Shown here one piece after another: positions 6,663-31,462 of a DNA stretch of 31,462 bases. The position numbers and the translations under genes were made by a program. The stretch is taken from the IMG/VR virus record IMGVR_UViG_3300029415_000135; one strand, given 5' to 3'. The notes below the pieces were generated by a model, which was not told where the DNA came from, searched no databases, and saw only the letters and a list, made by a program, of their open reading frames with translations. Source of the DNA: a virus (lineage: Duplodnaviria; Heunggongvirae; Uroviricota; Caudoviricetes). Within the stretch, counting starts at the first letter, position 1, and every line of letters begins with the position of its first letter.

Positions 6663-7256
6663 CTATTTGTCCCGGTTGGCTAAGGGATGACACAATTTAT
6701 TCTTTGCCGCTGATGAGGGGAATTTTTTATAGAGCGTGGACAGGCCAATATCAAAAATCAGCGCCACGCGTTGACGTGATTCACCCGCAGCCAGCAACCG
6801 TCCTGCCTGTTCCCACTCACTCGCGGTGAGCTTCGGACGTCTGCCACCAATACGACCTTTAGCTCTGGCCGCTTCCAGTCCGGCGCGAGTCCGCTCGACA
6901 ATGAGTTCTCGTTCCATTTCAGCCAGGGCACCCATCACATGAAAGAAAAAACGCCCCATCGGCGTGCTGGTATCAATGGCATCCGTCAGGCTGCGAAAAT
7001 TAATGCCGCGTTCGCGCAGCTCCTCAACCAGAATGACCAGATGCCGCATACTACGCCCCAGCCGGTCCAGCTTCCAGACTACCAGTGTATCCCCCTCCGA
7101 TAATGTCCTGAGCAGTTTTTTCAGTCCCGGCCTGTCGGACTTCGTGCCGCTGATTTTGTCCTCAAAAATCAGCTCACATCCTGCACACTCCAGCGCGTTA
7201 CGCTGCAATTCCGTGTTCTGGTCATTTGTTGACACGCGTACATAGCCAATAAGCAT
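6663..7256 (-). CDS. serine-recombinase DNA invertase (Hin/Gin/Cin/Pin family), about 197 aa
   Basis: N-terminus MLIGYVRVSTNDQNTELQ carries the catalytic Ser of resolvase/invertase family proteins; C-terminal HTH region. ATG at 7254-7256 has GGGGG SD 6 nt upstream. Lies directly beside the invertible segment, as gin does in Mu. Confidence 0.88.
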   Translation of the reverse strand: MLIGYVRVSTNDQNTELQRNALECAGCELIFEDKISGTKSDRPGLKKLLRTLSEGDTLVVWKLDRLGRSMRHLVILVEELRERGINFRSLTDAIDTSTPMGRFFFHVMGALAEMERELIVERTRAGLEAARAKGRIGGRRPKLTASEWEQAGRLLAAGESRQRVALIFDIGLSTLYKKFPSSAAKNKLCHPLANRDK

Positions 7257-7311
7257 GAGCATCCCCCTGAATAAAAACCGGAGATGATGCCAGTTGCCCG
7301 TTATCTCTGCA

Positions 7312-7337
7312 TTTTCATAAACGTTGGTTTGGGAGAA
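7312..7337 (+). repeat. 26-bp hix/gix-like recombination site (outer end of invertible segment)
   Basis: TTTTCATAAACGTTGGTTTGGGAGAA; imperfect palindrome with half-sites resembling the TTATCnAAAACC Hin-family consensus; matches the site at 9187-9212 at 20/26 positions in inverted orientation. Confidence 0.75.
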
Positions 7338-7700
7338 GCGGCAAAACGGGATGTGGGTAACGGGCAAAACCAAATTCCTGATATGTCAGCGTGGGAGTGT
7401 GGGGGAGATACAACGACGGGATGGAGGCGAAGCCCGGATGGTTATATTGAACAATGGGGGCTAACTGAGGCCACAACAAATGAAGTTTTGATTAATTTTC
7501 CTATCCCATTTCCGACAGCCGTCATTTCTATTAATGAACATGACCAGGCTCCTGTGGCAGGGAAAATGTCAGTATGGCAATTCTATAAATTGACTAACTC
7601 AAATGTCATAGCAGAGAACCTGGGATCTCTTGATAAAGGAAATCCATCCTTCAATGTTCCAACTGTCGCTGGTTGCCGCTGGTTTGCTACAGGAAGATAA
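7338..7700 (+). CDS. alternative (currently silent) tail-fibre C-terminal segment, fused to H only after inversion
   Basis: In-frame ORF continuing from the crossover site (…GLGE-AAKRDVGNGQNQ…) with no start codon or SD of its own; stop at 7698-7700 directly before the tfa' start. Confidence 0.65.
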   Translation, partial: AAKRDVGNGQNQIPDMSAWECGGDTTTGWRRSPDGYIEQWGLTEATTNEVLINFPIPFPTAVISINEHDQAPVAGKMSVWQFYKLTNSNVIAENLGSLDKGNPSFNVPTVAGCRWFATGR

Positions 7701-7701
7701 A

Positions 7702-8142
7702 ATGAGTAAATATCTTTACGATGCTAAAACTAATATGTTTTACCCATTTACTCTGGAAAGTCAGTATAAGGAGTCTGGGTTATGGCCTCATAATGGAGTT
7801 GAAGTTGATGAGGATATATTTATTAAGTACCTGGCCCCACCTCCAGGGAAAGTGAGAGTTGCGGGTGATGATGGCTATCCTGCATGGGATGACGTACCGC
7901 CGCTAACTCATGAAGAACAACTGTCAGAAGCGGAACGAAAAAAACAGGCACTCATAAATCGAGTTAATGAATATATTAACAGTAAGCAGTGGCCAGGAAA
8001 GGCTGCTATTGGTCGTCTGAAAGGTGAGGAACTGGCGCAATATAATCTGTGGCTGGATTACCTGGACGCACTGGAAATGGTCGATACTTCCAGTGCTCCA
8101 GATATTGAATGGCCTACGCCTCCGGCAGTTCAGGCCAGATGA
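7702..8142 (+). CDS. alternative tail fibre assembly protein (Tfa/Mu U' type), 146 aa
   Basis: ATG at 7702 with AGGAAGA SD; C-terminus ...DTSSAPDIEWPTPP is characteristic of Tfa chaperones; 3' end overlaps the other tfa tail-to-tail. Confidence 0.75.
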   Translation: MSKYLYDAKTNMFYPFTLESQYKESGLWPHNGVEVDEDIFIKYLAPPPGKVRVAGDDGYPAWDDVPPLTHEEQLSEAERKKQALINRVNEYINSKQWPGKAAIGRLKGEELAQYNLWLDYLDALEMVDTSSAPDIEWPTPPAVQAR

Positions 8143-8719
8143 CATCTGGCGCGGTGCTGGTATCAGTTGCCGTCACCGCGTCAATGTAATCCAGCACAGC
8201 GTTAAGGCGGGTTGTTTCTGTCTGCGTCAGTTTACGTCCGGCCTGCAATTTCAGTTGAATCAGACTGATGGAAGCCATTGCAGCATCAATCAGTGACTGG
8301 CGCTGTGCTTCTGCCGCTTCTACTGCGGCGCTATGCTGTGCCTCAGTATCCGCCACCCATTTTTCACCATTCCATTTATCATATGGCGTTAACGGGGCGA
8401 TAGTGGTTGTATTTTCAGGGTAATCACCCAGAGCGGTGATTTCTTTTGATTCTCCTGTTTCGGTGCTATAGACCGTTTCACCGCGATGGTCTGGCACATA
8501 TTCCCATGAGTTTAAATCTGCCGAACGGCAGATTGCATAACCAGCTTTGTTTGAGCTCGGAGCATCTAAACAAGAACATGCCGGGATACCGACACCGACA
8601 GCAAGATATTCAGTTGATGTGGCAATATATTCCCGTGTTTCGCCATCATAATTATAAACGGTAACACTCCCCGCCTTTGTAGCAATAAGCTCACTATTTA
8701 ATACAACTTTATTCATCAT
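8114..8719 (-). CDS. tail fibre assembly protein (Tfa; P2 gpG / Mu U analogue), 201 aa
   Basis: C-terminal ...DTSTAPDVIWPELPE Tfa signature; start overlaps the H stop. Confidence 0.85.
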   Translation of the reverse strand: MMNKVVLNSELIATKAGSVTVYNYDGETREYIATSTEYLAVGVGIPACSCLDAPSSNKAGYAICRSADLNSWEYVPDHRGETVYSTETGESKEITALGDYPENTTTIAPLTPYDKWNGEKWVADTEAQHSAAVEAAEAQRQSLIDAAMASISLIQLKLQAGRKLTQTETTRLNAVLDYIDAVTATDTSTAPDVIWPELPEA

Positions 8720-10026
8720 GCTGCCCTTACAATGTAGTTAAACGCGATATTTCTTGGACGGTTTTCAGATGCAGTTACAACTCCAGGAGCAGCACTGGCA
8801 TCGAAGTCTATACCTTCAGCAATTTTGTCAGTGGCTGAAGTGTTTGTGACATAAGCACTTTGAACTCTTGATGCTACTTTAAGAGCACCAGCAGCGAAAG
8901 TAATCAAAGCACTGCTCGATCCAGGTCTGATATTAAATCCTCCAGTTATATTTCTTATTGCATCCCCTTGAGATGATAACAAATCTCGACCAGCATCCAC
9001 CCCGCGCCCATCATCCCAGCCGCGAATGAATTCACCGCGTAAATCAGGCAATTTATTTGTTGGATAAGCCTTTGCCAGTTCCGGGTATTCTTCTGCAGAA
9101 AAAGGCGCACCGTTGCATTTCAGCCAGCCTGTTGGCGGTGTGGCTGAAGGCCATGGAACAGGCACACCAACGGGCAGTGCAGAGCCTTCCCCCAAACCAA
9201 GGTATGCGAGAAGACCGGCAACATCCTTTCCACTCAAATGAGTCAGCGTCTCATCCAGTGGCTGCTTACCTGACAGCGCATTGTTAATGGTGGTACTGAA
9301 TTTCGGGTCATTGTTAATGGCTGCGGCAATTTCTTTCAGTGTGTCCAGCGTGGCTGGCGCACCGTTAATCAGAGCGGTAATAGCGGCCTGTACAAACGCA
9401 GTGGTCGCAATCCGCGTGGTGTTATTTCCTGCGGCAGGCGTCGGCGCTTTTGGTTCTCCGGTAAATGTCGGATTATGTTTCTGTGCATACTGGGTATGAG
9501 GATCCTGTGCGGCAATGTGGTTTCTCATCTGGTCATCCACATACAGCCTTAATTCCAGGACTTCATCATCCACGTATTTACGGGTCGCCAGTACCACCGA
9601 CGGGTCGATTTTCAGCGTAATAGCTTCGGTATTCGTGACAACCAGAATCATGCGGATAGTCTGGGTACGACCACTGCCTTCCTGCAACTGCGGTTTGTAC
9701 GTTTCCGGGCAGTTCGCCACCGCAATGAGTACGCCTTCATCATCATAAAGCCCAATCTCACGGATCCAGAATCCGCCCTCGTTCTCAGGGATGATTTGCT
9801 CCGCAATAATCTGGCTCTGGTTATTCGGGTCAACACTCAGAAGATTCAGCGGTGCAATGCGTTTCTGGTTAATCAGTTTTGTCTGTGCCGGGTCTGGTGT
9901 CGGCAAGACACCATTCGCATCACCAACGGCCATTTGCGTCAGATTCAGCTTACTGCCGAGCATCGTCGCGTTAGCCAGCCGTGCTGCGCCCTGATTAGTC
10001 AGAATGGCGTAGTATTTCACTGTCAT
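8716..10026 (-). CDS. H: tail fibre protein (gpH-like; constant N-terminal part plus invertible C-terminal part), 436 aa
   Basis: N-terminus (MTVKYYAILTNQGAARLANA…) matches recalled P2 H; the C-terminal part has a tail-collar-like motif (PTGWLKCNGAPFSAEEYPEL); the recombination site is embedded at codons LLAYLGLGE. Confidence 0.88.
   Translation of the reverse strand: MTVKYYAILTNQGAARLANATMLGSKLNLTQMAVGDANGVLPTPDPAQTKLINQKRIAPLNLLSVDPNNQSQIIAEQIIPENEGGFWIREIGLYDDEGVLIAVANCPETYKPQLQEGSGRTQTIRMILVVTNTEAITLKIDPSVVLATRKYVDDEVLELRLYVDDQMRNHIAAQDPHTQYAQKHNPTFTGEPKAPTPAAGNNTTRIATTAFVQAAITALINGAPATLDTLKEIAAAINNDPKFSTTINNALSGKQPLDETLTHLSGKDVAGLLAYLGLGEGSALPVGVPVPWPSATPPTGWLKCNGAPFSAEEYPELAKAYPTNKLPDLRGEFIRGWDDGRGVDAGRDLLSSQGDAIRNITGGFNIRPGSSSALITFAAGALKVASRVQSAYVTNTSATDKIAEGIDFDASAAPGVVTASENRPRNIAFNYIVRAA
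9187..9212 (-). repeat. 26-bp hix/gix-like recombination site inside the tail-fibre gene H (inverted copy)
   Basis: Minus strand reads TTCTCGCATACCTTGGTTTGGGGGAA. Both sites encode ...GLGE... in frame (H codons LLAYLGLGE; alternative segment IFINVGLGE), so inversion makes an in-frame fusion. Confidence 0.75.
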
Positions 10027-10634
10027 GCGTTTACTCTCAGGTTATCAATTAAATGAATGACCGAGGCCGGGAAATAATCCCCTCCGACAATAATGGCCTC
10101 CGGGGTGTAGGGATAAACCGTCAGGGCGTCGCCGTGATAGCATCCCGCACCGGCAAAAATGTTGCCGGTTGTACTTAAACTGATAGCCAGTCCCGTCAAA
10201 TGGCGGCTTGCAGGTTTTGCATCAGCAACGAGACGCTCCAGCTCCTGATACATTTCCTCGGTAATACCCTGCTCAAGCACGCCAACAACGATGCGGAACG
10301 TCCCCGGCTCCTCGTTGAGCTGCCACCACTCCCTCACCTCAATCAGATAGCCGAGCGGCTCCACCACACGGCGAATCGCACCAATAGTGCCCTTATGGCA
10401 GTGAATGAAATACGCATCGCGGATAACAGCGCGTTTGGTCGCTTCCGGCCATTTATCATCCCACCTGTCGACCGAAAATGACCACGCCAGCCACGGCAGC
10501 AGATTTGCCGGGCAGGTGTCCGGGTTCCACAGCTCACGAACACTGACCGGCGTTTTTTCAATTTCCGCACAGGCTTTTGCGGCGGCAACTTCAAGCGGTG
10601 ATGAGCCGGTCGGCAGCAGTCGCGAATCACTCAT
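10023..10634 (-). CDS. I: baseplate/tail protein I (gpI), 203 aa
   Basis: Synteny between J and H; N-terminus recalls P2 gpI; stop overlaps H start (ATGA). Confidence 0.8.
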   Translation of the reverse strand: MSDSRLLPTGSSPLEVAAAKACAEIEKTPVSVRELWNPDTCPANLLPWLAWSFSVDRWDDKWPEATKRAVIRDAYFIHCHKGTIGAIRRVVEPLGYLIEVREWWQLNEEPGTFRIVVGVLEQGITEEMYQELERLVADAKPASRHLTGLAISLSTTGNIFAGAGCYHGDALTVYPYTPEAIIVGGDYFPASVIHLIDNLRVNA

Positions 10635-18786: not shown

Positions 18787-18959
18787 TGTCAGGAGTCCTG
18801 AATAGTGATTAGAGGAGTCACATGTCGGCATCAGTTTCCCGACGATGCGCATCCTCCGCCATCAGTCCCGGATGGCTTATCACTGACACAACAGCACCTT
18901 AGCGAATCGCGGGGCGCGACTCAGTAGCCTTGCCGTGTATTCATCACGGCGAGGTATTC
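18787..18959. promoter_or_regulatory. divergent late promoter region (PO leftward, PP rightward), presumed Ogr-dependent
   Basis: 173-bp intergenic region between the divergent O and P late operons; position equivalent to P2 PO/PP. Only imperfect TGT-N12-ACA-like dyads found (for example TGG-N12-ACA near 18866-18883), so individual elements are not resolved. Confidence 0.4.
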
Positions 18960-20732
18960 ATGACCATCACCACAGACACCACTCTTTTACACGACCCGCG
19001 TCGTCAGGCGGCGCTGCTGTACTGGCAGGGATTTTCCGTGCCGCAGATTGCCGCCATGTTGCAGATGAAACGCCCGACGGTGCAGAGCTGGAAACAGCGC
19101 GACGGCTGGGACAGCGTTGCCCCCATCAGCCGTGTCGAAATGAGTCTGGAAGCGCGGCTGACCCAGCTCATCATCAAACCGCAGAAAACCGGCGGTGACT
19201 TCAAGGAAATTGACCTGCTCGGACGCCAGATTGAACGACTGGCACGGGTCAACCGTTACAGTCAGACCGGCAACGAGGCAGACCTTAATCCGAACGTCGC
19301 TAACCGCAACAAAGGCGGGCGTCGCAAACCGAAAAAGAATTTTTTCAGTGACGAGGCCATCGAAAAGCTGGAGCAGATTTTCTTTGAGCAGTCTTTCGAA
19401 TATCAGTTGCACTGGTATCGCGCCGGGCTTGAGCACCGCATCCGCGATATCCTGAAATCCCGCCAGATTGGCGCGACGTTTTATTTTTCCCGCGAGGCGC
19501 TGCTGCGCGCCCTGAAAACCGGTCATAACCAGATTTTTCTGTCGGCCAGTAAAACGCAGGCGTATGTGTTCCGCGAATACATCATCGCCTTTGCCCGTCT
19601 GGTTGACGTTGACCTGACCGGTGACCCGATTGTCCTGGGCAATAACGGCGCAAAACTGATTTTTCTCGGCACCAACTCCAACACCGCACAGAGCCATAAC
19701 GGCGACCTGTACGTCGACGAGATTTTCTGGATCCCGAATTTTCAGGTACTGCGTAAGGTGGCATCAGGTATGGCCTCACAGAGTCACCTGCGCTCGACCT
19801 ATTTCTCCACCCCGTCCACGCTGGCGCACGACGCCTACCCGTTCTGGTCGGGTGAACTGTTTAACCGGGGACGCGCCAGCGCCGCCGAACGCGTGGAAAT
19901 CGACGTCAGTCATAACGCCCTTGCCGGTGGGCTTCTCTGTGCGGACGGCCAGTGGCGGCAGATTGTCACCATTGAGGACGCCCTGAAAGGCGGCTGCACA
20001 TTGTTCGACATTGAGCAGCTTAAACGCGAAAACAGCGCCGACGATTTTAAAAACCTGTTCATGTGTGAATTTGTTGACGACAAGGCATCGGTGTTCCCGT
20101 TCGAGGAGTTGCAACGCTGCATGGTCGACACGCTGGAAGAATGGGAAGACTATGCGCCGTTTGCCGCAAATCCGTTCGGCTCACGTCCGGTATGGATTGG
20201 TTACGACCCGTCACACCGTGGCGACAGCGCCGGATGCGTGGTACTGGCACCGCCGGTGGTGGCCGGTGGCAAATTCAGAATACTTGAGCGTCACCAGTGG
20301 AAAGGCATGGACTTTGCCACCCAGGCGGAATCCATCCGCAAACTCACCGAAAAATACAACGTCGAATACATCGGCATTGATGCCACCGGCCTCGGTGTCG
20401 GCGTGTTCCAGCTCGTGCGCTCGTTCTATCCCGCCGCGCGCGATATCCGCTACACGCCGGAAATGAAAACCGCAATGGTGCTCAAGGCAAAAGACGTTAT
20501 CCGCCGTGGCTGTCTGGAATATGACGTCAGCGCCACCGACATCACCAGCTCGTTTATGGCTATCCGCAAGACCATGACCAGCAGCGGACGCAGTGCCACC
20601 TATGAGGCCAGCCGCAGCGAGGAAGCCAGCCACGCCGACCTCGCCTGGGCGACCATGCACGCCCTGTTAAATGAGCCACTCACCGCCGGTATCAGCACCC
20701 CGCTGACATCCACCATTCTGGAGTTTTACTGA
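18960..20732 (+). CDS. P: terminase large (ATPase) subunit (gpP), 590 aa
   Basis: From ATG 18960 (MTITTDTTLLHDPRRQ…, GAGG SD) the ORF is 590 aa, the P2 P size; the ORF-track start at 18930 is a TTG extension. Confidence 0.9.
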   Translation: MTITTDTTLLHDPRRQAALLYWQGFSVPQIAAMLQMKRPTVQSWKQRDGWDSVAPISRVEMSLEARLTQLIIKPQKTGGDFKEIDLLGRQIERLARVNRYSQTGNEADLNPNVANRNKGGRRKPKKNFFSDEAIEKLEQIFFEQSFEYQLHWYRAGLEHRIRDILKSRQIGATFYFSREALLRALKTGHNQIFLSASKTQAYVFREYIIAFARLVDVDLTGDPIVLGNNGAKLIFLGTNSNTAQSHNGDLYVDEIFWIPNFQVLRKVASGMASQSHLRSTYFSTPSTLAHDAYPFWSGELFNRGRASAAERVEIDVSHNALAGGLLCADGQWRQIVTIEDALKGGCTLFDIEQLKRENSADDFKNLFMCEFVDDKASVFPFEELQRCMVDTLEEWEDYAPFAANPFGSRPVWIGYDPSHRGDSAGCVVLAPPVVAGGKFRILERHQWKGMDFATQAESIRKLTEKYNVEYIGIDATGLGVGVFQLVRSFYPAARDIRYTPEMKTAMVLKAKDVIRRGCLEYDVSATDITSSFMAIRKTMTSSGRSATYEASRSEEASHADLAWATMHALLNEPLTAGISTPLTSTILEFY

Positions 20733-21766
20733 TGAGCAAGAAAAAAGGGAAAACACCGCAACCTGCGGCAAAAAAAATGACCGCCAGCGCCCCGAAAATG
20801 GAGGCATTCACCTTTGGTGAGCCGGTGCCGGTACTCGACCGGCGTGACATTCTGGATTACGTCGAGTGCATCAGTAACGGCAGATGGTATGAGCCACCGG
20901 TCAGCTTTACCGGTCTGGCGAAAAGCCTGCGTGCTGCCGTGCATCACAGCTCACCGATTTACGTCAAACGTAATATTCTGGCTTCAACGTTTATCCCGCA
21001 CCCGTGGCTTTCCCAGCAGGATTTCAGCCGTTTTGTGCTGGATTTTCTGGTGTTCGGTAATGCGTTTCTGGAAAAGCGTTACAGCACCACCGGTAAGGTT
21101 ATCAGGCTGGAAACCTCGCCGGCAAAATATACCCGCCGTGGCGTGGAGGAGGATGTTTACTGGTGGGTGCCGTCCTTCAACGAGCCGACAGCCTTCGCGC
21201 CCGGCTCCGTGTTTCACCTGCTGGAGCCGGATATTAATCAGGAGCTGTACGGTCTGCCGGAATATCTCAGCGCCCTTAATTCTGCCTGGCTGAATGAGTC
21301 GGCCACGCTGTTCCGCCGCAAGTATTACGAAAATGGCGCACATGCCGGATACATCATGTACGTCACTGATGCCGTGCAGGATCGCAACGATATCGAAATG
21401 CTACGCGAAAACATGGTTAAGTCAAAAGGCCGCAATAACTTTAAAAATCTGTTTCTCTATGCCCCACAGGGGAAAGCCGACGGCATTAAAATTATCCCCC
21501 TCAGTGAAGTGGCGACGAAGGACGATTTTTTTAATATCAAAAAAGCCAGCGCCGCTGACCTGCTGGACGCGCACCGCATCCCCTTTCAGTTGATGGGTGG
21601 CAAGCCGGAGAACGTCGGGTCGCTGGGTGATATAGAGAAAGTGGCAAAGGTCTTTGTCCGCAATGAGCTTATCCCGTTACAGGACAGGATCCGCGAGATA
21701 AACGGCTGGCTCGGTCAGGAGGTCATCCGCTTTAAAAACTACTCACTGGACACTGACAACGGCTGA
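20732..21766 (+). CDS. Q: portal (capsid) protein (gpQ), 344 aa
   Basis: 344 aa, size and synteny as P2 Q; overlaps the P stop. Confidence 0.9.
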   Translation: MSKKKGKTPQPAAKKMTASAPKMEAFTFGEPVPVLDRRDILDYVECISNGRWYEPPVSFTGLAKSLRAAVHHSSPIYVKRNILASTFIPHPWLSQQDFSRFVLDFLVFGNAFLEKRYSTTGKVIRLETSPAKYTRRGVEEDVYWWVPSFNEPTAFAPGSVFHLLEPDINQELYGLPEYLSALNSAWLNESATLFRRKYYENGAHAGYIMYVTDAVQDRNDIEMLRENMVKSKGRNNFKNLFLYAPQGKADGIKIIPLSEVATKDDFFNIKKASAADLLDAHRIPFQLMGGKPENVGSLGDIEKVAKVFVRNELIPLQDRIREINGWLGQEVIRFKNYSLDTDNG

Positions 21767-21771
21767 ACATC

Positions 21772-21793
21772 GCCGCCTGTGGGCGGCTTTTTT
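21772..21793 (+). terminator. rho-independent terminator of the P-Q operon
   Basis: GCCGCC-TGTG-GGCGGC stem-loop followed by TTTTTT, 6 nt after the Q stop. Confidence 0.7.
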
Positions 21794-21935: not shown

Positions 21936-21954
21936 GTGCTTTCCCCGCCTCGCC
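21936..21954. other. cos site (19-nt cohesive-end sequence of P2-type phages)
   Basis: GTGCTTTCCCCGCCTCGCC is the reverse complement of the recalled P2 cohesive end GGCGAGGCGGGGAAAGCAC; located next to Q as in P2. Confidence 0.8.
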
Positions 21955-22407
21955 TGCCCGCTTTATAGGTCGGGTTTAATGCAGTTGCGTGACCATTTTG
22001 GATCCGCGCCAGCTCTGGCCGCTCACGGCCAGAGCGTGCAAGGCTGACTCATGCAAAACCATGCACCTTATGCATTCATGGTTAAATAACGATAACTCTG
22101 ACTCAAATTATTGGTTTGTGTTGGTTTTATTTTGGTTAAGAGATGCGCATTGCACCAATAATACTGGATAGCAGCTTAATAATCAGCGCTGTTAACAACA
22201 GGATATTTGAAGTCATTACCATGGCATTGACCAAGTTACTAAATCTCGGTGTTAATCAGGGATTGTCAGCGTCATATGTAACATCTCACGATATCCACAT
22301 CAACAGCCTGTAGTTTGGCGGCTGATGGCACTTTGGGAGGCTTTCACTTTCACTCTATCTAATGTTACTATCGCGCCCATTACTAGGAAAATTACTTAAT
22401 CATAACA

Positions 22408-24030
22408 ATGGGTAGTGATATGCAAATTCAAAGAGGCGTAATTTGGCATACATACACAACACAATCGCCAGAATATCAAGATGCCGAGAAATTTAGTTCA
22501 GACTTGATAAATACAGGGTTGTTTCTTGCAATACTAACGCCACACAACACATTCAAATATTTATCAAAAAACACACCATCCTCAACAAAAATAAGCATGA
22601 GATATGAAAACAACGAAAATGCTGTTACTGTTGAGGGCGGTGATAAGATTCATGCGTCAGGTGTTTGCGCCCTAACTGCTACGGCTTTTTCCCAGTGTAT
22701 AAACATTAGACTCTCTGAAAGAAAGCTTTTTCACACACCAGGTAATAATTATTACGAAAACATAATATGTTGTCAAAAGCCAATCCTAGTAAAAAATAAC
22801 GATGTGGAATTTTTTATTCATCCAATTATTCGTCTCTATAAAAATGGGATAGCACATGTTACCTTTGTTGACACTGAGGAACGCAATGTTGATTTGAATG
22901 ATTTCATAAAAAACATTTTAAACCTACCTTTAAAACTAAACAGTTCGATTACTACCAGCATAGAGTTCGCCAAGAGTTCGTTACTGCTAGACTATTCAGG
23001 AATGCCACTACTTAGTAGACTGATAGCGAAGTGTAGTATTAAAAAGAGTTTAAAACTATTGAACGACAACTCTGAAGATCTAGAGGTTGGTGAATTTAAG
23101 GTTACAGGTAGATATATTGATTACACAAATTTAATGCAAATTCAGCATAATTTAAGTGACATCGCCAGATATGTGATTGCTATAATATTTGACAAAACAA
23201 AAAAAAGAACAATTAAAGATTATCTTTTAGGCAGAAATCTTTCTGAGTTTTATAACTTCTGGCAAGGTAAGCCAAGCGTCTATATCTTCGAGCACGATAA
23301 TCAAAAAAACAATGCCACTGACAATTTTCAGAGTAATAAGTCGTTAGTTTATTCATTGCTGGGCAAAAATCACCTATTAACAAACATAAAGCACACCAAG
23401 AAAATCATTGATCATCGTGCCTTTGATGATTTCAATTTTTTTTCTGAACAGTCTTTAGCACTGACTATACTTACATGTAAAGTTAAAAAAGAATTTTTTA
23501 CCGGGACATATACAGAAGAAAATCTGATGTGGGACAATCAGGTTAAGAGTGATCTTAGAGATTTCATTTCCTTTTCATATGATTCAACAATAGAAAAAAT
23601 TGGAAATGAAAAAAGCCATCTTGGCCTTGCCAAAATACAAGAAGACATCCTTTTATTTGAAGAGTGGCTTAGGATTTTCTCAAGGAAGTATGGAGAGATA
23701 CAAGACTTCACATTTAATACATTAAATTCAATCGATATAAAAAGGGCTCGTCAAAGCGTCATTGAATTGATAAAGTCAAGAATCCAAGTGCTAAAATTAA
23801 TTGATACCGACTTAAATGACAAAAGTAATAAGAAGATAACAATGGCCTTTGGTTTAATTGCATCGACATCATTATCCCCAATTTTAGTAAAGCCATTATT
23901 TGAAACACTAAACCTGTCACTTTTAATTAAGAAATCTGGACTCAAAAGCTATGAAGATGCAATTTACTTTGCCACATCCATGGTTTTGGTTTGGTTAATA
24001 ATAAAGCTATTAAACTTCAGGAGAAAATAG
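22408..24030 (+). CDS. hypothetical protein, 540 aa, AT-rich accessory gene at the P2 old/tin position; candidate anti-phage/abortive-infection protein
   Basis: Long intact ORF in a markedly AT-rich block, opposite in strand to the early operon, between cos and A. No Walker A or other motif recognised; two hydrophobic C-terminal segments (ITMAFGLIASTSLSPILV, AIYFATSMVLVWLIIKLL). Confidence 0.8.
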   Translation: MGSDMQIQRGVIWHTYTTQSPEYQDAEKFSSDLINTGLFLAILTPHNTFKYLSKNTPSSTKISMRYENNENAVTVEGGDKIHASGVCALTATAFSQCINIRLSERKLFHTPGNNYYENIICCQKPILVKNNDVEFFIHPIIRLYKNGIAHVTFVDTEERNVDLNDFIKNILNLPLKLNSSITTSIEFAKSSLLLDYSGMPLLSRLIAKCSIKKSLKLLNDNSEDLEVGEFKVTGRYIDYTNLMQIQHNLSDIARYVIAIIFDKTKKRTIKDYLLGRNLSEFYNFWQGKPSVYIFEHDNQKNNATDNFQSNKSLVYSLLGKNHLLTNIKHTKKIIDHRAFDDFNFFSEQSLALTILTCKVKKEFFTGTYTEENLMWDNQVKSDLRDFISFSYDSTIEKIGNEKSHLGLAKIQEDILLFEEWLRIFSRKYGEIQDFTFNTLNSIDIKRARQSVIELIKSRIQVLKLIDTDLNDKSNKKITMAFGLIASTSLSPILVKPLFETLNLSLLIKKSGLKSYEDAIYFATSMVLVWLIIKLLNFRRK

Positions 24031-24183
24031 ACAATGTAATACCTAAATGCCAATACTAATGTAATTACAAAAATCTTGGCTTAAAGTATTAGGATCGTAA
24101 CTTCAACCATAGCTAACGCCTCGCTGGGCGAGTTGTTCAACCCCGCCAGCACTGAAAGCAAGTTTCAGCACCGGCGGCGTTTC

Positions 24184-24420
24184 CTATGGTCGACGTGGCG
24201 GCAGTATTATCGGACCTCTCGCCGGTGTGAAGGCCTCAACTTTCTGATTGCTTATATCATGCAGCCGCCCGTAATTATCCCTGACGATTTCAGCACACCC
24301 GACCAGTTCGGCGGGTGTCAGATTCTCATTGACCATTATTTGTTGCAGTCGATGCACAATACCCATCAGTTTTATGCTGTTGTTCTTATGCTGCGGAATT
24401 TCACGGTGTAGTCTGTGCAT
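24184..24420 (-). CDS. hypothetical protein, 78 aa (distal early-operon ORF)
   Basis: ATG immediately follows the stop of the upstream 101-aa ORF, with GGTGGAGA SD; overlapped by a less convincing TTG-initiated plus-strand ORF. Confidence 0.5.
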   Translation of the reverse strand: MHRLHREIPQHKNNSIKLMGIVHRLQQIMVNENLTPAELVGCAEIVRDNYGRLHDISNQKVEAFTPARGPIILPPRRP

Positions 24421-24726
24421 TTACCAGTCTCCACCTTCAACGTGTAACTTGTCTGAAATGAGCGCCGCTAACTCATGATTTGCTGATGAATTTCTTCCGC
24501 TATGCGTATCCCCCAGAACCAACGCGAAGCCATCGCCACCCACCGTGTAATACTTAGCTTCCGGGAAGTGTTCCCGCACCTCCTGACGCAGCTTTTCTAG
24601 CGCGGTAGAAAGACGATAAAATCGAGATGCCGCAGTCGGCATAACATCAGATAGCAAGTCACGCGCCGTGGTAATGCCTTCGCTATCTTTAATAACTTGT
24701 TTTATTTCTTCGGTGTACATGGTCAT
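24421..24726 (-). CDS. hypothetical protein, 101 aa (occupies the P2 orf91 position downstream of A)
   Basis: ORF directly abutting the A stop, same strand. Confidence 0.6.
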   Translation of the reverse strand: MTMYTEEIKQVIKDSEGITTARDLLSDVMPTAASRFYRLSTALEKLRQEVREHFPEAKYYTVGGDGFALVLGDTHSGRNSSANHELAALISDKLHVEGGDW

Positions 24727-27018
24727 TCAATCAATCTCCATTATTGAAACATTGGAATATCCCGGCCACTCATCAGCGACCGCATAACTGAATTTTTTCT
24801 CGCCATATGTCACCGTTGCGCCCCGCGCCAGTACATCCAGTTCCCACCGCTCCGGCGTGATACCGTGTTGTGCTAGGTCAAACCGGATGCGTGATATCTG
24901 GTCACGCTGCGATTTAGTCAGTCGCGCTGAAGGTGCTAATTCATCCGGCTTCAACGGTGATCGGTTTCTTTGTTGCCTGTTTTGAGGTTTAGCCCCTGCT
25001 TTTAGCGCGCCCCTGAGCACCTTCACGGCGTCCGGGTCATTCCAGTCGATCACCCCAGCATCAATGAGATTTATCACCGCTGCGGCTTGCTCAGACGGTG
25101 TGGGCGTCATATCCGTGTCGCTTCCGTTGGCCGGTAACCCACAGTTATTGACAGGACTCCGAGGCGCGGCGATGCCGCTTTTTAAAGTCAAAGGCTCAAC
25201 GACCGGCACTTTCGGAACAATGCGCCAGTCCGTCGTTCTGGTGATATGAATATGACGCGCGCCGAGATGCGGCGCGTAAATGCCGACCACTCTCTCGACT
25301 TCTTCCTCGTACTCGTTAACTTCATCCGACGGACTACGGGCGACCCTGACAGTCTGACAATCGCGCGGGACATTTGCCCCACCCTGCGCGCTGATATACA
25401 ACGCAAAATCACCACTGTCTGCGGCGGCGCGTGCAGCCTCGACGCGCTCGTCAAACTCATCAGCAATGCTGACGCCGCGCGGCAATTTGCGTAGTTCACG
25501 GTAAGCCCCCATTGTCGGCAGGCCAACCGTTTTAAATTGCGGGATGCGCCACGTTGACGCCCATGCGGTAACAGCCGCTGCAGTGTCTTTCAGCGGCCTG
25601 CCGGTGTCGTTATCGAGCTGACCATCCAGTGCATAGCCGTCGATGTTTTTTGAAATGTATTTCGCGATATATCCCGCAGCACCGCCCCGGTTAAGGTGTT
25701 TTGCCTGAAAACGGTTTCGCGCGGCTCCTCTTTCGTCGCCATCCTCTTTGAGCGCATAGCGACGCATGATTTCGATAATCTGGTTACGCTGGCGTGAATT
25801 ACAAAAAAGCATCATATGCCAGTGCGGCGTTCCGTCGTGGTGTGGCTCGACGACACGCAAACCGTAGACCTGTAAATCATTATCCTTGAATGCCGTGCGC
25901 ATCAGGCTCCAGATACGGCAGAGATAACGCTGCGCATCCTTTGGATTAAATGCCTCATCATTCCAGCCGTGATTTAGCTGGACGGTTTTACTTTCGCCTT
26001 TTCCGACCTGACGTGTCGGGTGATACTTTGACGGCGCGGTCAGAGTGATAAACATCCCCACATCACCCTCTGCGGCGGCGTAACGCTCAATACCGGCGAT
26101 GGTGTTCATCAGCTCCATCCGGCGAATTTCAGGATTAGAAATACTGCCCATCACCTTACTGATAAGGTCGATGCGCTCGCCGGTTTCCCTGTTTTCGAGG
26201 TCACACGATTTAAGAAATTCCAGATTTGCCTGGCGGCGTGCACGCACATCACGAATGGCATGTTTACTGGCATAAGGAGAACGGTCTTTATTGACCTCCC
26301 CGACAGCAATCAGTAACGCCTCATGCCAGCGCATACGCTGGCCTTTAAGCTGATGAGTCCACCACTCATCGTTAAACAGACGGGCAATGGCAGAATATGC
26401 CTGCCTCGTGGTCATCTGTCCTTTACGGTATTTTTTCCAGTAGAGAGGGGAAATATTGAAAGCACGTGCAGCGCCAGCAACATGACCATACAGATGCGCC
26501 TGCGCCTCATCTGTAAACAGCGATTCTTTCTCGCCATGTGCATCAACCCATGCATCGCAGAGTTCCTCATACATCATGAAAAGCTGCGATGAGATACGGG
26601 CGGCAAACTTTTTCAGCTCCTTGTCATTCATCCCCGGCAGACGCGCATAATGGTCACGCTCTGCCAAAAACAGCAACGACGCGTCGGTGTTCATTTCATG
26701 GCGCTGATTCACGCGCTCAATACGCGGCCATAAACGGCGCTGAAAAGTGGATGTGAGGAAATAAAACCCGTGCACCGGGCTTTTATTGCGCCGGATGTAG
26801 TCATAGCGTGAAGTAAACAGCGAGCGCAAAAAGTAAGGCAGGCGATTAATCGTGGATAAAACACCTTGCACCTGACGCATCTCGTCACGTGTAAGGGGTC
26901 TTTCGCGCCCGACGGCCTCGCGTGGCGCGTTCCATGCATAAGCACCGGTAAACGTCTCACCGGTGCCTGCGGCAAATGCTGACGGAGGGACAAAACGCCC
27001 GGAGGCTTTAACGGCCAT
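24727..27018 (-). CDS. A: replication initiation endonuclease (gpA, rolling-circle), about 763 aa
   Basis: Start taken at the Met of MAVKASGRFVPP… by analogy with recalled P2 gpA; strong similarity throughout, including the HWHMMLF motif region. The ORF track extends 14 codons upstream. Confidence 0.88.
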   Translation of the reverse strand: MAVKASGRFVPPSAFAAGTGETFTGAYAWNAPREAVGRERPLTRDEMRQVQGVLSTINRLPYFLRSLFTSRYDYIRRNKSPVHGFYFLTSTFQRRLWPRIERVNQRHEMNTDASLLFLAERDHYARLPGMNDKELKKFAARISSQLFMMYEELCDAWVDAHGEKESLFTDEAQAHLYGHVAGAARAFNISPLYWKKYRKGQMTTRQAYSAIARLFNDEWWTHQLKGQRMRWHEALLIAVGEVNKDRSPYASKHAIRDVRARRQANLEFLKSCDLENRETGERIDLISKVMGSISNPEIRRMELMNTIAGIERYAAAEGDVGMFITLTAPSKYHPTRQVGKGESKTVQLNHGWNDEAFNPKDAQRYLCRIWSLMRTAFKDNDLQVYGLRVVEPHHDGTPHWHMMLFCNSRQRNQIIEIMRRYALKEDGDERGAARNRFQAKHLNRGGAAGYIAKYISKNIDGYALDGQLDNDTGRPLKDTAAAVTAWASTWRIPQFKTVGLPTMGAYRELRKLPRGVSIADEFDERVEAARAAADSGDFALYISAQGGANVPRDCQTVRVARSPSDEVNEYEEEVERVVGIYAPHLGARHIHITRTTDWRIVPKVPVVEPLTLKSGIAAPRSPVNNCGLPANGSDTDMTPTPSEQAAAVINLIDAGVIDWNDPDAVKVLRGALKAGAKPQNRQQRNRSPLKPDELAPSARLTKSQRDQISRIRFDLAQHGITPERWELDVLARGATVTYGEKKFSYAVADEWPGYSNVSIMEID

Positions 27019-27283
27019 ATGAGCCAAAAGCCTCTGAACAACGCTTGCTGAGTTGCTCAACCTGCGCGTTTAAATCAGCAAAAGACTTTGCGCTTCCGGT
27101 CAGAATATCGTGATGCATCAGGCCGGAAACAAGCTGGCTTAATTTCGGGTAATAACCAACCACCGCCAGCCATTCCTGACCGGCGTTTTTACCGCTTTCA
27201 GCTCTCTTTTTCTCGTGGAGAATAAACTGAAAGCTGTCACTGGTAACGACATAACGTTCGCCAATTTCAATACGAATACTCAT
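27008..27283 (-). CDS. hypothetical early protein, 91 aa (P2 orf83 position)
   Basis: ORF coupled to the upstream gene by ATGA overlap; end overlaps the A start. Confidence 0.6.
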   Translation of the reverse strand: MSIRIEIGERYVVTSDSFQFILHEKKRAESGKNAGQEWLAVVGYYPKLSQLVSGLMHHDILTGSAKSFADLNAQVEQLSKRCSEAFGSYGR

Positions 27284-29637: not shown

Positions 29638-30633
29638 ATGTCTATTAAAAAGCTCGATGATGGTCGTTATGAAGTGGACGTCAGACCGCAGGGTGCAGAT
29701 GGAAAACGTATCAGGCGGAAATTTAAAACTAAAGGTGAAGCTCAAGCATTCGAACGTCATGTCCTGGTTAACTACCACAACAAAGAGTGGTTGGAGAAGC
29801 CGGCCGACCGCCGAACTCTTACAGAGTTGTTAGGCAGATGGTGGATATATCACGGAAAATCACATGAGCGTGGAGATATTGAACGAGGGCGTTTGACGAC
29901 AATAATCGCCAAATTTGCCGAGATGGGAGTGTCCAGGGCGGACCAGCTAACAAAGAAAACGATAACTGATTATCGCGTTGTAATGATGAACGATGGCCTA
30001 AAACCAGCCAGCGTAAATCGGCATCTGGCAATAATGAGCGGGATGTTCACCAAGTTAATTGACGCCGGTGAATATCACTCTCACAACCCGTTCCGTGAGG
30101 TTAAGCGGTTACGTGAAGCTGTTACGGAAATGGCTTTTTTGTCCAGTGAAGAGATTACGCGGCTGTTATCCATGCTTGATGGTGATGAGTTAAATGCAAC
30201 TCTGGTCTGCCTTTCTACTGGTGGACGCTGGAGTGAAGTGTCTAATTTGAAAGCTGAACACATCATTAACCAGATGGTTACGTTTATGAAAACTAAAAAC
30301 GGAAAGCGCAGGACAATTCCCGTTTCGCAGGACCTGATTAAACGGATCAAGACCAAAAATTCAGGCAGGCTTTTTAATGCCAGTTACTACAAAGTGCGCA
30401 ACGCTCTCAGGGAAGTAAAACCCGATTTACCTGACGGACAGGCAGTGCATGTTTTGAGGCATACATTTGCCACACATTTTATAATGAATGGAGGTAACAT
30501 AATCACATTGCAGCGCATCCTGGGTCATTCTAACATTCAGCAAACTATGACCTACGCACACTTTGCACCGGATTTCTTACAAGATGCTGTGACTCTTAAC
30601 CCGGTGTCAGGAATGTCCATAATGCGTCCATAA
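29638..30633 (+). CDS. int: tyrosine integrase (P2 Int family), 331 aa
   Basis: N-terminus MSIKKLDDGRYEVDVRPQG… resembles P2 Int; C-terminal catalytic region with …HVLRHTFATHF… and …LGHSNIQQTMTYAH… (R, H-x-x-R, Y); GGAGGG SD. Confidence 0.88.
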   Translation: MSIKKLDDGRYEVDVRPQGADGKRIRRKFKTKGEAQAFERHVLVNYHNKEWLEKPADRRTLTELLGRWWIYHGKSHERGDIERGRLTTIIAKFAEMGVSRADQLTKKTITDYRVVMMNDGLKPASVNRHLAIMSGMFTKLIDAGEYHSHNPFREVKRLREAVTEMAFLSSEEITRLLSMLDGDELNATLVCLSTGGRWSEVSNLKAEHIINQMVTFMKTKNGKRRTIPVSQDLIKRIKTKNSGRLFNASYYKVRNALREVKPDLPDGQAVHVLRHTFATHFIMNGGNIITLQRILGHSNIQQTMTYAHFAPDFLQDAVTLNPVSGMSIMRP

Positions 30634-30664: not shown

Positions 30665-31462
30665 ATGAGTAATTTAACTAATTGTAATACAACAGAAAAT
30701 ACCGCTGCGGCGGGGGCTACCAAGTCAGTTATTGGTCGCATTCACTCCTTTGAATCCTGTGGAACCGTAGACGGCCCGGGTATTCGCTTTATCACCTTTT
30801 TCCAGGGCTGCCTGATGCGCTGCCTGTATTGTCATAACCGCGACACCTGGGATACGCATGGCGGTAAAGAAGTTACCGTTGAAGATTTAATGAAAGAGGT
30901 GGTGACCTATCGCCACTTTATGAACGCTTCCGGCGGCGGCGTTACCGCATCCGGCGGTGAGGCAATCCTACAAGCTGAGTTTGTTCGTGACTGGTTCCGC
31001 GCCTGCAAAAAAGAAGGCATTCATACCTGTCTGGACACCAACGGTTTTGTTCGTCGTTACGATCCGGTGATTGATGAACTGCTGGAAGTAACCGACCTGG
31101 TAATGCTCGATCTCAAACAGATGAACGACGAGATCCACCAAAATCTGGTTGGAGTTTCCAACCACCGCACGCTGGAGTTCGCCAAATATCTGGCGAACAA
31201 AAATGTGAAGGTGTGGATCCGCTACGTTGTTGTCCCAGGCTGGTCTGACGATGACGATTCAGCGCATCGCCTCGGTGAATTTACCCGTGATATGGGCAAC
31301 GTTGAGAAAATCGAACTCCTCCCCTACCACGAGCTGGGCAAACACAAATGGGTGGCAATGGGTGAAGAGTACAAACTCGACGGTGTTAAACCACCTAAGA
31401 AAGAGACCATGGAACGCGTGAAAGGCATTCTTGAGCAGTACGGTCATAAGGTAATGTTCTAA
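30665..31462 (+). CDS. pflA: pyruvate formate-lyase 1 activating enzyme (radical SAM), host gene; ORF as drawn is 265 aa
   Basis: From [19 protein letters not shown]… the translation matches recalled E. coli PflA, including the CxxxCxxC radical-SAM motif (CLMRCLYC). The codon at the recalled initiator position (30722-30724) is AAG; first in-frame ATG is at 30665. Confidence 0.85.

What the first reader, a model, noticed from the sequence alone, without database searches (positions are those of the whole stretch)
22408..24030. Uncharacterised AT-rich 540-aa gene in the old/tin accessory slot between cos and gene A
P2 carries its anti-phage cargo (old, tin) between the A gene region and cos, a slot known to vary between P2-like prophages. 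Here it holds one long intact ORF, transcribed opposite to the early operon, in a block far more AT-rich than the phage backbone, which points to recent horizontal acquisition. I cannot match the protein to Old (no Walker A motif) or to any family I recognise. It has a large soluble N-terminal region and two hydrophobic, possibly membrane-spanning, C-terminal segments, an architecture seen in several single-gene abortive-infection effectors. It is the strongest candidate here for an undescribed defence gene.
Basis: partly seen in the sequence, partly recalled or inferred. Interest (0 to 1): 0.85.

Follow-up and report, generated by a model that had tools for sequence, protein, structure and literature searches.

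The report
Unnamed membrane protein in P2 defence slot
A P2-like prophage carries, in the slot where phage P2 keeps its anti-phage genes, one intact AT-rich gene for a membrane-anchored protein from a widespread family that nobody has named or tested, and it is a credible but unproven candidate for a new single-gene phage-defence protein.

Summary
An intact 540-codon ORF (22408-24030, +; likelier start 22420) with GC 0.33 lies between cos (21936-21954) and gene A of a GC 0.55 P2-like prophage, laid out like P2 old/tin.

It matches nothing in Pfam, PADLOC, NCBIfam or PDB sequences, only an unannotated PHROG. A 49%-identical paralogue is listed, untested, as "System #84" in Rousset et al. 2022.

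- **Close family:** Enterobacterales only. All 22 loci with readable flanks sit in the same Q-A slot as a single gene. dN/dS is 0.13.
- **Wider family:** a profile search finds 228 clusters of ~540-aa relatives in diverse bacteria. In 7 of 8 sampled, the gene lies beside known or candidate defence genes or toxin-antitoxin (TA) modules (CBASS, HEC-03, Lamassu-type).

Best reading, inferred rather than shown: a self-contained sensor plus membrane-permeabilising abortive-infection protein. An A8 tract inside the gene is a recurrent frameshift site.

The parts
21936..21954 (.). cos cohesive-end 19-mer (gtgctttccccgcctcgcc)
   Evidence: Identical to the reverse complement of P2 cosR, NC_001895 33575-33593.
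22080..22407 (+). Left part of the variable cargo block: leader and putative promoter region. Candidate -35 TTCACT at 22343-22348, 14-nt spacer to the TG (17 nt to the -10 hexamer), extended -10 TGtTACTAT at 22363-22371.
   Evidence: DNA similarity to other P2-like phages stops at about 21990-22080. The TAATGTTACTATCG stretch is conserved with the 68%-identical Enterobacter allele. The promoter is read by eye at 8 of 12 matches, below the scanner's threshold, so it is inferred only.
22408..24030 (+). Cargo ORF, 540 aa (probable true start ATG 22420, giving 536 aa). Member of an unnamed family (phrog_24946).
   Evidence: dN/dS is 0.13 against the Enterobacter allele.
22408..23247 (+). N-terminal α/β region (aa 1-280), the putative cytoplasmic sensor part
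23199..23206 (+). A8 homopolymer inside GACAAAACAAAAAAAAGA (codons D262-R267), a recurrent frameshift site at the boundary of the two halves
   Evidence: A 5-nt deletion (23192-23196) in IMG/VR copy L024, and A8 to A7 at the homologous tract in allele-2 copies L028 and L029. Each splits the gene into ORFs of about 275 and about 280-293 aa. Many 247-275-aa members appear in the protein clusters.
23248..24027 (+). C-terminal module (aa 281-540), the best-conserved half. Motifs: W285-x-G-K-P289...Q299, R337/D341, G429-E430, F481-G482, P496.
   Evidence: Conservation over 61 diverse members. Many profile hits cover only profile positions about 270-535.
23731..23907 (+). Long helix aa 442-500 (the stalk) that continues into hydrophobic segment 1 (aa 478-497, nt 23839-23898)
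   Evidence: Secondary structure of both AlphaFold models, the hydrophobicity scan and the C-terminal alignment.
23959..24018 (+). Hydrophobic segment 2 (aa 518-537), a strong transmembrane helix followed by the basic tail FRRK
   Evidence: Kyte-Doolittle 1.86 here and 1.7-3.3 in relatives. The tail carries 0.36 K/R per residue, the loop 0.11.
24112..24182 (.). Conserved 71-bp non-coding segment, the likely right-hand boundary or anchor of the hotspot
   Evidence: 94% identical to an unannotated stretch near the cos end of phage 186 (NC_001317 30343-30413) and to other P2-like phages.

Best explanation
The ORF is the sole cargo of the gpQ-gpA (old/tin) defence hotspot of a P2-like prophage. 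It most likely encodes a self-contained, inner-membrane-inserted anti-phage protein of the abortive-infection type.

Proposed working (inferred). The cytoplasmic N-terminal α/β region (aa 1-280) and the conserved α/β-helical core (aa 281-440) sense a cue of infection by another phage. The signal passes down the ~59-residue stalk helix into the C-terminal hairpin, which is an amphipathic TM1 carrying the invariant F-G...P motif, then TM2, then a basic cytoplasmic tail. Oligomers of this hairpin open or form an ion-conducting pore, in the manner of CorA-type channels. The pore collapses membrane potential and stops the infection before progeny are made, which protects the lysogen's clonemates and the resident prophage.

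Shown: position, integrity, selection, family breadth, defence-island neighbourhoods of relatives, and predicted architecture. Inferred: defence activity, pore formation, oligomeric state and trigger.

My estimates are about 0.65 for 'is an anti-phage or inter-MGE conflict gene' and about 0.4 for the whole statement including the membrane-permeabilising mechanism.
For: (1) Location. The gene lies between cos and gene A and is transcribed from the cos side towards A, exactly like old/tin in P2. This locus is an experimentally supported reservoir of anti-phage systems (PMC9122126).

(2) Consistency. All 22 enterobacterial loci with readable flanks carry the gene in this slot and orientation as a single gene. 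Their backbones have diverged (portal identity 68-100%, gpA 35-99%).

(3) It is a real gene. dN/dS is 0.13. There are 24 full-length clusters at 33-99% identity and 228 profile hits at E<=1e-3, nearly all 510-570 aa.

(4) Guilt by association outside Enterobacterales, 7 of 8 sampled loci:
- HEC-03A/B plus HicA (L011).
- PDC-S45-like protease (L009).
- ICE cargo with PDC-M05A (L010).
- PIN, DUF4238, PDC-S34/S44-like genes and TA pairs (L014).
- ParE, PIN and antitoxin modules (L015).
- LmuB_C, MC3 and CTD7 (L032).
- A complete CBASS with SAVED-Cap4, HORMA and an AAA protein (L033).

(5) Sporadic, rare distribution typical of defence cargo: 1 and 12 of 5426 complete E. coli genomes for the two alleles.

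(7) Precedent, from my own knowledge and as stated in PMC9122126: membrane proteins act as suicide effectors in CBASS, retron, Pycsar, RexAB and type III CRISPR-CorA systems.
Against: - No experiment exists, and there is no homology to any validated defence protein.
- TM1 is only weakly hydrophobic in this protein, and the paralogue is listed with 1 TM in Table S5B (Phobius per the Methods). The C-terminus could therefore be a simple anchor.
- About a quarter of P2 hotspot loci carry non-defence cargo such as partition systems or toxins (PMC9122126).
- Only 3 of the 8 additional P2 systems tested in that study (besides old and tin) gave a phenotype, so position alone is a modest prior.
- Frameshifted copies are common, which could mean decay rather than regulation.
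Confidence: 0.4

Rival explanations
1. Superinfection-exclusion protein. It is anchored in the inner membrane of the lysogen and blocks DNA injection or an early membrane-associated step of incoming phages without killing the cell. The C-terminal hairpin serves only as an anchor.
For: The gene is prophage-encoded, has lysogen-type placement like old/tin, and has a membrane anchor with a large cytoplasmic domain. TM1 is weak and the paralogue is recorded with a single TM, which fits an anchor rather than a pore.
Against: Known Sie proteins are small and phage-lineage-specific (own knowledge). This family is about 540 aa and spreads across non-phage chromosomal islands and an ICE in Geobacter, Cellvibrio, Cyanobium and Terriglobia. 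The best-conserved residues include the F-G...P motif inside TM1, which is unexpected for a passive anchor.
Confidence: 0.15
2. Non-defence lysogenic-conversion cargo ('moron'): a CorA-like ion or solute channel, or a membrane stress sensor, that changes host physiology to the benefit of the lysogen.
For: There is a weak fold resemblance to CorA/Mrs2 cytosolic domains plus a CorA-like C-terminal layout. The P2 hotspot also carries non-defence cargo (PMC9122126). An Ion_trans_2 channel gene sits elsewhere in a related prophage remnant.
Against: There is no GMN motif, no Pfam CorA hit and no profile similarity. The rare, patchy distribution and the defence or TA neighbourhoods in 7 of 8 distant loci are atypical of transporters.
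Confidence: 0.12
3. A weapon or addiction factor serving the mobile element rather than the host. Examples are a toxic membrane protein that stabilises the prophage, interferes with P4-type satellites or competing P2-like phages only, or modulates lysis timing.
For: The gene sits next to cos, where P2-P4 conflict genes lie (PMC9122126). TA modules are frequent neighbours of relatives. The recurrent frameshifts suggest that expression is costly.
Against: No conserved antitoxin-like partner is seen in the contexts examined (flanks only). The family also occurs outside phages and satellites. This reading overlaps with defence, because activity against relatives would still count as inter-viral defence.
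Confidence: 0.08
4. A decaying or non-functional ORF that survives by chance in AT-rich junk DNA.
For: Split copies are frequent. No promoter reaches the scanner's threshold upstream.
Against: A 540-codon open frame in 33% GC DNA is very unlikely by chance. dN/dS is 0.13. Full-length conservation reaches 33% identity in the close family and about 15-25% across 228 clusters. AlphaFold confidence from co-variation is pLDDT 93.
Confidence: 0.02

Closest known systems
P2 hotspot 'System #84' of Rousset et al. 2022 (Cell Host Microbe, PMC9122126, Table S5B)
   Same: It is homologous (the P0017/L012 allele, 49% identical, same length). It occupies the same gpQ-gpA slot as a single gene, has no Pfam domain, has a C-terminal TM, and was seen 43 times in E. 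coli P2-like prophages.
   Different: It is a different allele group, and the window's allele is rarer (1 versus 12 of 5426 complete genomes). That entry is only a catalogue line. It was not cloned, named or analysed, and it is absent from the paper's tested systems (Table S2).
P2 old / tin (lysogenic-conversion exclusion genes)
   Same: Same locus, same orientation relative to cos and gene A, and presumably the same lysogen-expressed logic.
   Different: There is no sequence or domain relationship. Old is an ABC-ATPase plus TOPRIM nuclease. This protein has no Walker A, no nuclease motif and is membrane-inserted.
CorA / Mrs2 / ZntB (MIT superfamily) divalent-cation channels, including CorA-type effectors of type III CRISPR systems
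Single-protein or effector membrane Abi proteins (such as RexB, the Gop of gop-beta-cII, TM effectors of CBASS/Pycsar/retrons, AbiZ)
   Same: Prophage or defence-island cargo with TM helices that are presumed to collapse the membrane on infection (PMC9122126; own knowledge).
   Different: There is no detectable homology to any of them (PADLOC). Here the sensor and the membrane part are fused in one 540-aa chain with a fold not found in the PDB.

Membership tests
P2-like gpQ-gpA (old/tin) hotspot cargo | Lies between portal gene Q and replication gene A, next to cos, in a P2-like (pro)phage | tested here: met
   Q at 20732-21766, cos at 21936-21954, ORF at 22408-24030, A at 24727-27060. The same holds in 22 of 22 related loci.
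P2-like gpQ-gpA (old/tin) hotspot cargo | Variable content bounded by conserved backbone sequence | tested here: met
   Phage similarity ends at about 21990-22080 and resumes at 24112-24182. GC is 0.33 against 0.55.
Rousset 2022 System #84 / phrog_24946 family | Full-length sequence homology | tested here: met
   phrog_24946 matches 1-540 of 540 at E=0. The System #84 sequence shares the WHTYT and WQGKP motifs and equals the P0017 cluster at 49% identity.
OLD family nucleases (P2 Old, Gabija GajA, PARIS AriA class) | ABC-ATPase Walker A motif plus TOPRIM domain | tested here: not met
   No G/AxxxxGK[ST] motif. No Pfam or PADLOC hit.
Any known or candidate defence system in PADLOC-DB v2.0.0 (includes Rst_, PD-, PDC-, HEC- models) | HMM match to a system component | tested here: not met
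   The window protein gets 0 families at E<=1. Of 61 diverse relatives, 1 has a chance-level hit at E 0.006.
CorA / MIT superfamily | G-M-N signature at the periplasmic end of TM1 | tested here: not met
   TM1 reads ITMAFGLIASTSLSPILVKP. The family consensus is LTI-FG-x-A-x-P-x-L-A-x(5)-P-[LI]-W, with no GMN.
CorA / MIT superfamily | Sequence or profile similarity (Pfam PF01544, or hhalign to TmCorA) | tested here: not met
   Pfam gives 0 hits for 61 members. The PDB profile search finds no CorA at E<=10. hhalign probability is 0.3%, although the template was a single sequence, so this test is weak.
CorA / MIT superfamily | Cytoplasmic α/β domain plus helices with the CorA fold | tested here: inconclusive
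CorA / MIT superfamily | Long stalk helix continuous with TM1, two C-terminal TM helices, basic C-terminal tail, N-in/C-in topology | tested here: met
   Helix 442-500, the hydrophobic segments, and K/R density of 0.22 before TM1, 0.11 in the loop and 0.36 in the tail. These are predictions, not experiments.
CorA / MIT superfamily | Homopentameric funnel that conducts divalent cations | not testable with these tools
   No multimer prediction or functional assay was available.
Abortive-infection defence (functional class) | Reduces phage yield at the cost of the infected cell | not testable with these tools
   This needs plaque, ECOI and growth-curve assays.

The most novel reading that the evidence does not exclude
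The gene is the enterobacterial, phage-borne branch of a large bacterial family that has never been named. The family has at least 228 clusters at 50% identity, in Proteobacteria, Desulfobacterota, Cyanobacteria, Acidobacteriota and others. Its members would be stand-alone 'sensor-channel' immune proteins. In each, a new cytoplasmic fold would detect infection directly and gate a CorA-like but GMN-less membrane pore within the same polypeptide. Expression would be toggled by slip-strand frameshifting at an internal poly-A tract placed exactly between the sensor half and the pore half.
Probability: 0.25. Interest if true: 0.75.

Novelty: new variant of a known kind. Interest (0 to 1): 0.6.

Why it matters
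If the gene does defend, it would add a widespread single-gene immune family that current annotation tools cannot see. Pfam, NCBIfam, PADLOC v2 and the PDB all give nothing.

Sensing and membrane killing would be fused in one protein of a largely new fold, which makes it a compact system for studying how a phage cue is turned into membrane permeabilisation.

It would also give a name and a function to a catalogued but ignored entry of the P2 hotspot census (System #84). The distant resemblance to CorA could link ion-channel architecture to immunity outside type III CRISPR.

The internal poly-A frameshift site would be a testable case of phase-variable control of a costly prophage defence gene. 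If the gene does not defend, it is simply one more hypothetical hotspot gene.

Tried and rejected
**Family and sequence searches**
- Pfam, PADLOC and NCBIfam on the protein gave nothing except a chance 'sunset' hit at E 0.12. The same three libraries on 61 diverse relatives gave nothing meaningful.
- PDB sequence searches with the protein and with the family profile gave nothing.
- tblastn against 50,697 phage records found no match. The gene is therefore absent from sequenced phage isolates, although it is present in prophages and in IMG/VR.

**Structure searches**
- The AFDB library was not available, so no comparison with predicted structures was possible.
- hhalign of the family against TmCorA was negative. 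The TmCorA sequence was verified against 3jcf.

**Other scans**
- Rfam on the whole window gave 0 matches, so there is no retron-like or other known RNA beside the gene.
- The second homologous-protein run, with the broad alignment, returned only the same 24 clusters.
- The search for related loci on genome contigs failed with the broad alignment because no stretch was conserved enough. With the close alignment it found no relative in GTDB species representatives.

**Literature**
- The family's motifs and accessions do not appear in the DefensePredictor supplements.
- Brenes & Laub 2025 is not held.
- The 2024 iLund4u and 2026 P2/P4 preprints report no test of this gene.
- A 'CorA-like' plus defence text search gave nothing relevant.

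**Ideas rejected**
- Old- or Tin-like: no motifs.
- A two-gene system: no conserved partner. The small ORFs between cos and the gene differ from locus to locus.
- A chance ORF: ruled out by selection and conservation.
Full report

Yes. The ORF listing gives one long ORF, 22408..24030 on the + strand, 540 aa with an ATG start. Only short overlapping ORFs appear on other frames. GC in 500-nt windows falls from 0.53-0.57 upstream to 0.35, 0.31 and 0.33 across the ORF, then rises to 0.50-0.58 in gene A. The ORF itself is 0.330 GC.

The phage frame is P2-like. Terminase is at 18930-20732 and portal Q at 20732-21766, both on +. A terminator follows at 21772-21787. The P2 cohesive-end 19-mer sits at 21936-21954 and is identical to the reverse complement of P2 cosR. 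After the ORF come two small early-operon ORFs of 78 and 101 aa (phrog_11386 and phrog_27273, both of unknown function) and gene A at 24727-27060 on the - strand.

In P2 itself, tin and old lie between Orf91/A and cos, and they are transcribed from a start about 150 nt inside cos towards A. The window's ORF has the same placement and polarity.

The variable block can be delimited. DNA similarity to other P2-like phages stops at about 21990-22080. It resumes at a 71-bp non-coding segment, 24112-24182, which is 94% identical to a stretch near the cos end of phage 186. The cargo is therefore about 2 kb with a single gene.

The start codon is probably 22420 rather than 22408. Most homologues begin MQI/MKI/MRI, PGAP uses that ATG in the only complete E. 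coli genome carrying the gene, and allele 2 has AAGGA upstream of the equivalent ATG.

**2. What is it related to?**

Nothing that has a name. Pfam, PADLOC v2.0.0 and NCBIfam give no hit. PHROGs gives a full-length match to phrog_24946, which has no known function. PDB sequences give nothing. There is no Walker A motif.

The DNA occurs in 1 of 5426 complete E. coli genomes, strain 1217KP, in the same prophage context and annotated as hypothetical. It occurs in no sequenced phage isolate.

The 5.8-billion-protein search found 24 clusters, all from Enterobacterales: Escherichia, Enterobacter, Lelliottia, Klebsiella, Cronobacter, Serratia and Pantoea. They are 33-99% identical and all but two (a 507-aa and a 312-aa cluster) are 534-540 aa long. 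A second E. coli allele group (P0017, 49% identical) is present in 12 of 5426 complete genomes.

That allele is listed in Rousset et al. 2022, Table S5B, as P2-hotspot System #84. The entry has no Pfam domain, 43 occurrences and '1 TM'. It is not among the systems they cloned (Table S2). I found no test of it in the DefensePredictor supplements or in two later hotspot papers. The family is catalogued but uncharacterised.

**3. Context of the close family**

I examined loci from the look-up of encoding contigs (L002-L008, L012, L013) and from IMG/VR (L017-L030), using tblastn with the window's Q, P and A proteins. Every locus with readable flanks (22 of 22) has the gene just downstream of Q on the same strand and convergent with A. 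Backbone divergence is wide, with portal identity 68-100% and gpA 35-99%.

No partner gene is conserved. The small ORFs between cos and the gene differ between loci, and in Pantoea the gene starts 78 nt after Q.

All alleles keep GC at 0.32-0.35, even in Serratia and Pantoea. Nei-Gojobori dN/dS against the 68%-identical Enterobacter allele is 0.13, with dS 1.7 and so near saturation. This is a selected gene that travels as hotspot cargo.

**4. The wider family**

A profile of the 23 close sequences, searched against 1.84 billion cluster representatives, found 228 proteins at E<=1e-3 and 140 at E<=1e-10. Nearly all are 510-570 aa and match end to end.

A search seeded with a central distant member (P0081) gave 120 clusters. 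Named sources include Geobacter, Cellvibrio, Cyanobium, Syntrophus, Desulfomonilaceae, Terriglobia, Longimicrobium and Desulfosediminicola. All are 'hypothetical' with no Pfam domain.

I looked at eight genomic contexts.

| Locus | Source | Neighbourhood |
|---|---|---|
| L011 | metagenome-assembled chromosome | HEC-03A/B immediately upstream (E 2e-64 and 3e-199), an RNA ligase, HicA downstream |
| L031 | related lineage | Same chromosomal site beside the suf operon, but the family member is alone, so this is a variable island |
| L009 | Geobacter | A PDC-S45-like trypsin protease 98 nt upstream, with transposase remnants nearby |
| L010 | Cellvibrio | Cargo end of an ICE, next to PDC-M05A |
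| L014 | Cyanobium | Between a PIN_12/PIN_8 protein and a DUF4238 protein (a domain validated as defence by Rousset et al.), with MNT/HEPN-type and Phd/PIN pairs nearby |
| L015 | Terriglobia | Embedded among ParE/Phd, PIN and antitoxin genes |
| L032 | metagenome contig | Beside LmuB_C, MC3 and CTD7 conflict-system genes |
| L033 | metagenome contig | 20 nt downstream of an HTH-M78/DUF3368 pair and adjacent to a complete CBASS (SMODS, SAVED-Cap4, HORMA, AAA) |

Seven of the eight loci are defence or TA neighbourhoods. This is a small and not strictly random sample, but it points one way.

**5. Anatomy of the protein**

With only the close family as alignment, AlphaFold2 gave pLDDT 72.6. With 61 diverse relatives it gave pLDDT 93.1 and pTM 0.89, with no segment below 50.

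- aa 1-280 form α/β units with long antiparallel strands.
- aa 285-362 form a small β/α unit that carries the best-conserved motifs: W285-x-G-K-P289, the invariant Q299, R337 and D341.
- Helices then follow at 370-400, 404-424 and 429-439, with G429-E430 nearly invariant.
- A helix at 442-500 runs straight into the first hydrophobic segment (aa 478-497). That segment carries F481-G482 and the invariant P496.
- A 17-20-residue loop follows, then a strongly hydrophobic helix (aa 518-537) and the basic tail FRRK.

Both hydrophobic segments recur across the 61 relatives. K/R density is 0.22 per residue before TM1, 0.11 in the loop and 0.36 in the tail. By the positive-inside rule this fits an N-in/C-in hairpin. 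TM1 often contains an acidic residue and is only marginally hydrophobic, which suits a pore-lining or re-entrant helix better than a plain anchor. That last point is inference.

**6. Fold comparison**

The layout is that of the CorA/MIT superfamily: an α/β domain, a helical bundle, a very long stalk helix continuous with TM1, a loop, TM2 and a basic tail. Membership fails on the defining points that could be tested. There is no GMN motif, no Pfam or PDB profile hit, and hhalign against TmCorA gives 0.3% probability. I therefore say 'works perhaps like', not 'is a', CorA. The AFDB comparison that might settle this was unavailable.

**7. Mechanism: best guess and rivals**

The location, the single-gene nature, the company kept by relatives and the sensor-stalk-hairpin architecture together favour a self-contained defence protein that permeabilises or depolarises the inner membrane when its cytoplasmic part senses infection. 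This is the abortive-infection logic. Membrane effectors of this logic are known in CBASS, Pycsar, retrons, RexAB, gop-beta-cII and type III CRISPR-CorA (PMC9122126; own knowledge).

I give about 0.65 to a conflict or defence role and about 0.4 to the full mechanism. The rivals are:

- A non-lethal superinfection-exclusion protein, 0.15.
- A non-defence channel or 'moron', 0.12.
- An element-serving toxin or competition factor, 0.08.
- A dead ORF, 0.02, contradicted by selection and conservation.

None of these can be separated without experiments. The decisive ones are listed under next steps.

**8. A feature not in the finding**

Inside the ORF, at codons D262-R267, lies GACAAAACAAAAAAAAGA with an A8 run at 23199-23206. 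This is exactly where the N-terminal region meets the conserved C-terminal module.

One IMG/VR copy of this allele (L024) has a 5-nt deletion there. Two copies of allele 2 (L028 and L029) have A8 changed to A7 at the homologous tract. Each change splits the gene into ORFs of about 275 and about 280-293 aa. The protein clusters also contain many members of 247-275 aa, one of them on 23 contigs.

This could be slip-strand phase variation of a costly gene, recurrent inactivation, or, for the 1-nt cases only, homopolymer sequencing error. The window's copy is intact.

**9. Expression signals**

These signals are weak evidence. The consensus scanner finds no site at 9 of 12 or better just upstream on the + strand.

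By eye, TTCACT (22343-22348), then 14 nt to the TG (17 nt to the -10 hexamer), then the extended -10 TGtTACTAT (22363-22371) form an 8-of-12 promoter. Its -10 block is conserved in the 68%-identical Enterobacter allele while the flanks are not. It would give a leader of about 40 nt, similar to the leader of P2 old. There is no Rfam RNA in the window.

**10. Verdict**

The gene is a well-founded but untested candidate for a new single-gene defence family. It has a confidently predicted structure with no close match in the PDB, and at best a distant, non-member resemblance to CorA channels.

It is not wholly 'undescribed', because a paralogue is a line in a 2022 supplementary table. It is also one of many unknown cargos in this hotspot, which tempers the score. 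Interest is 0.6, and the novelty rating is new variant of a known kind.

Noticed in passing
window 23191-23207 (A8 at 23199-23206): A poly-A/ACAAA-repeat tract inside the cargo ORF, at the junction of its two halves, is a recurrent frameshift site. L024 has a 5-nt deletion there, and L028 and L029 have A8 changed to A7 at the homologous tract of allele 2. Many half-length proteins also appear in the clusters. This may be phase variation, decay, or in part sequencing error.
   Followed up: partly
window 24112-24182: A 71-bp non-coding segment is 94% identical to an unannotated stretch near the cos end of phage 186 and of several Yersinia and Klebsiella P2-like phages. It is probably the conserved right-hand anchor of the hotspot, or the end of the early-operon transcript.
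   Followed up: partly
window 6663-8719: A serine invertase (Resolvase plus HTH_7, 6663-7373, - strand) lies beside two oppositely oriented tail-fibre assembly genes (7630-8142 + and 8114-8719 -) in a lower-GC patch (0.42). This looks like a Gin/Cin-type invertible host-range segment.
   Followed up: partly
window 30665-31462: A radical-SAM/4Fe-4S protein gene lies just after the integrase (29638-30633) and reaches the end of the window. It is presumably host flank rather than phage.
   Followed up: no
window 24184-24726 (- strand): Two small ORFs of 78 and 101 aa (phrog_11386 and phrog_27273, both of unknown function) sit between the cargo and gene A, at the position of P2 Orf91 but unrelated in annotation. 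They travel with this allele in E. coli and IMG/VR copies.
   Followed up: partly
L002-L004, 3189-4505: In Enterobacter, the family member sits in a degraded P2-like prophage that also carries a 438-aa Ion_trans_2 (potassium-channel-type) gene between tail genes S and V/D. This is a second unexplained membrane cargo.
   Followed up: no
L005-L007 (Serratia), about 7720-10189: The family member lies in a P2 remnant (a portal fragment, with gpA-like fragments by tblastn) inserted among chromosomal genes. It is followed by two unannotated genes (239-243 and 257 aa) and a PhoH-like ATPase. The two unannotated genes have no PADLOC hit.
   Followed up: partly
L011 versus L031: Two related genomes carry a family member at the same site beside the Rrf2-suf operon. 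One also has HEC-03A/B, an RNA ligase and HicA there, and the other has only the family member. This is a chromosomal variable island.
   Followed up: partly
L032 6083-6997; L033 8664-9377: In some distant lineages an unannotated gene abuts the family member: a 304-aa gene ending 4 nt upstream in L032, and a 237-aa gene 17 nt downstream in L033. These could be lineage-specific partners. Neither has a Pfam hit.
   Followed up: partly
E. coli complete genomes: One of the 13 allele-2 copies in complete E. coli genomes lies on a plasmid rather than the chromosome, and one genome has two copies.
   Followed up: no
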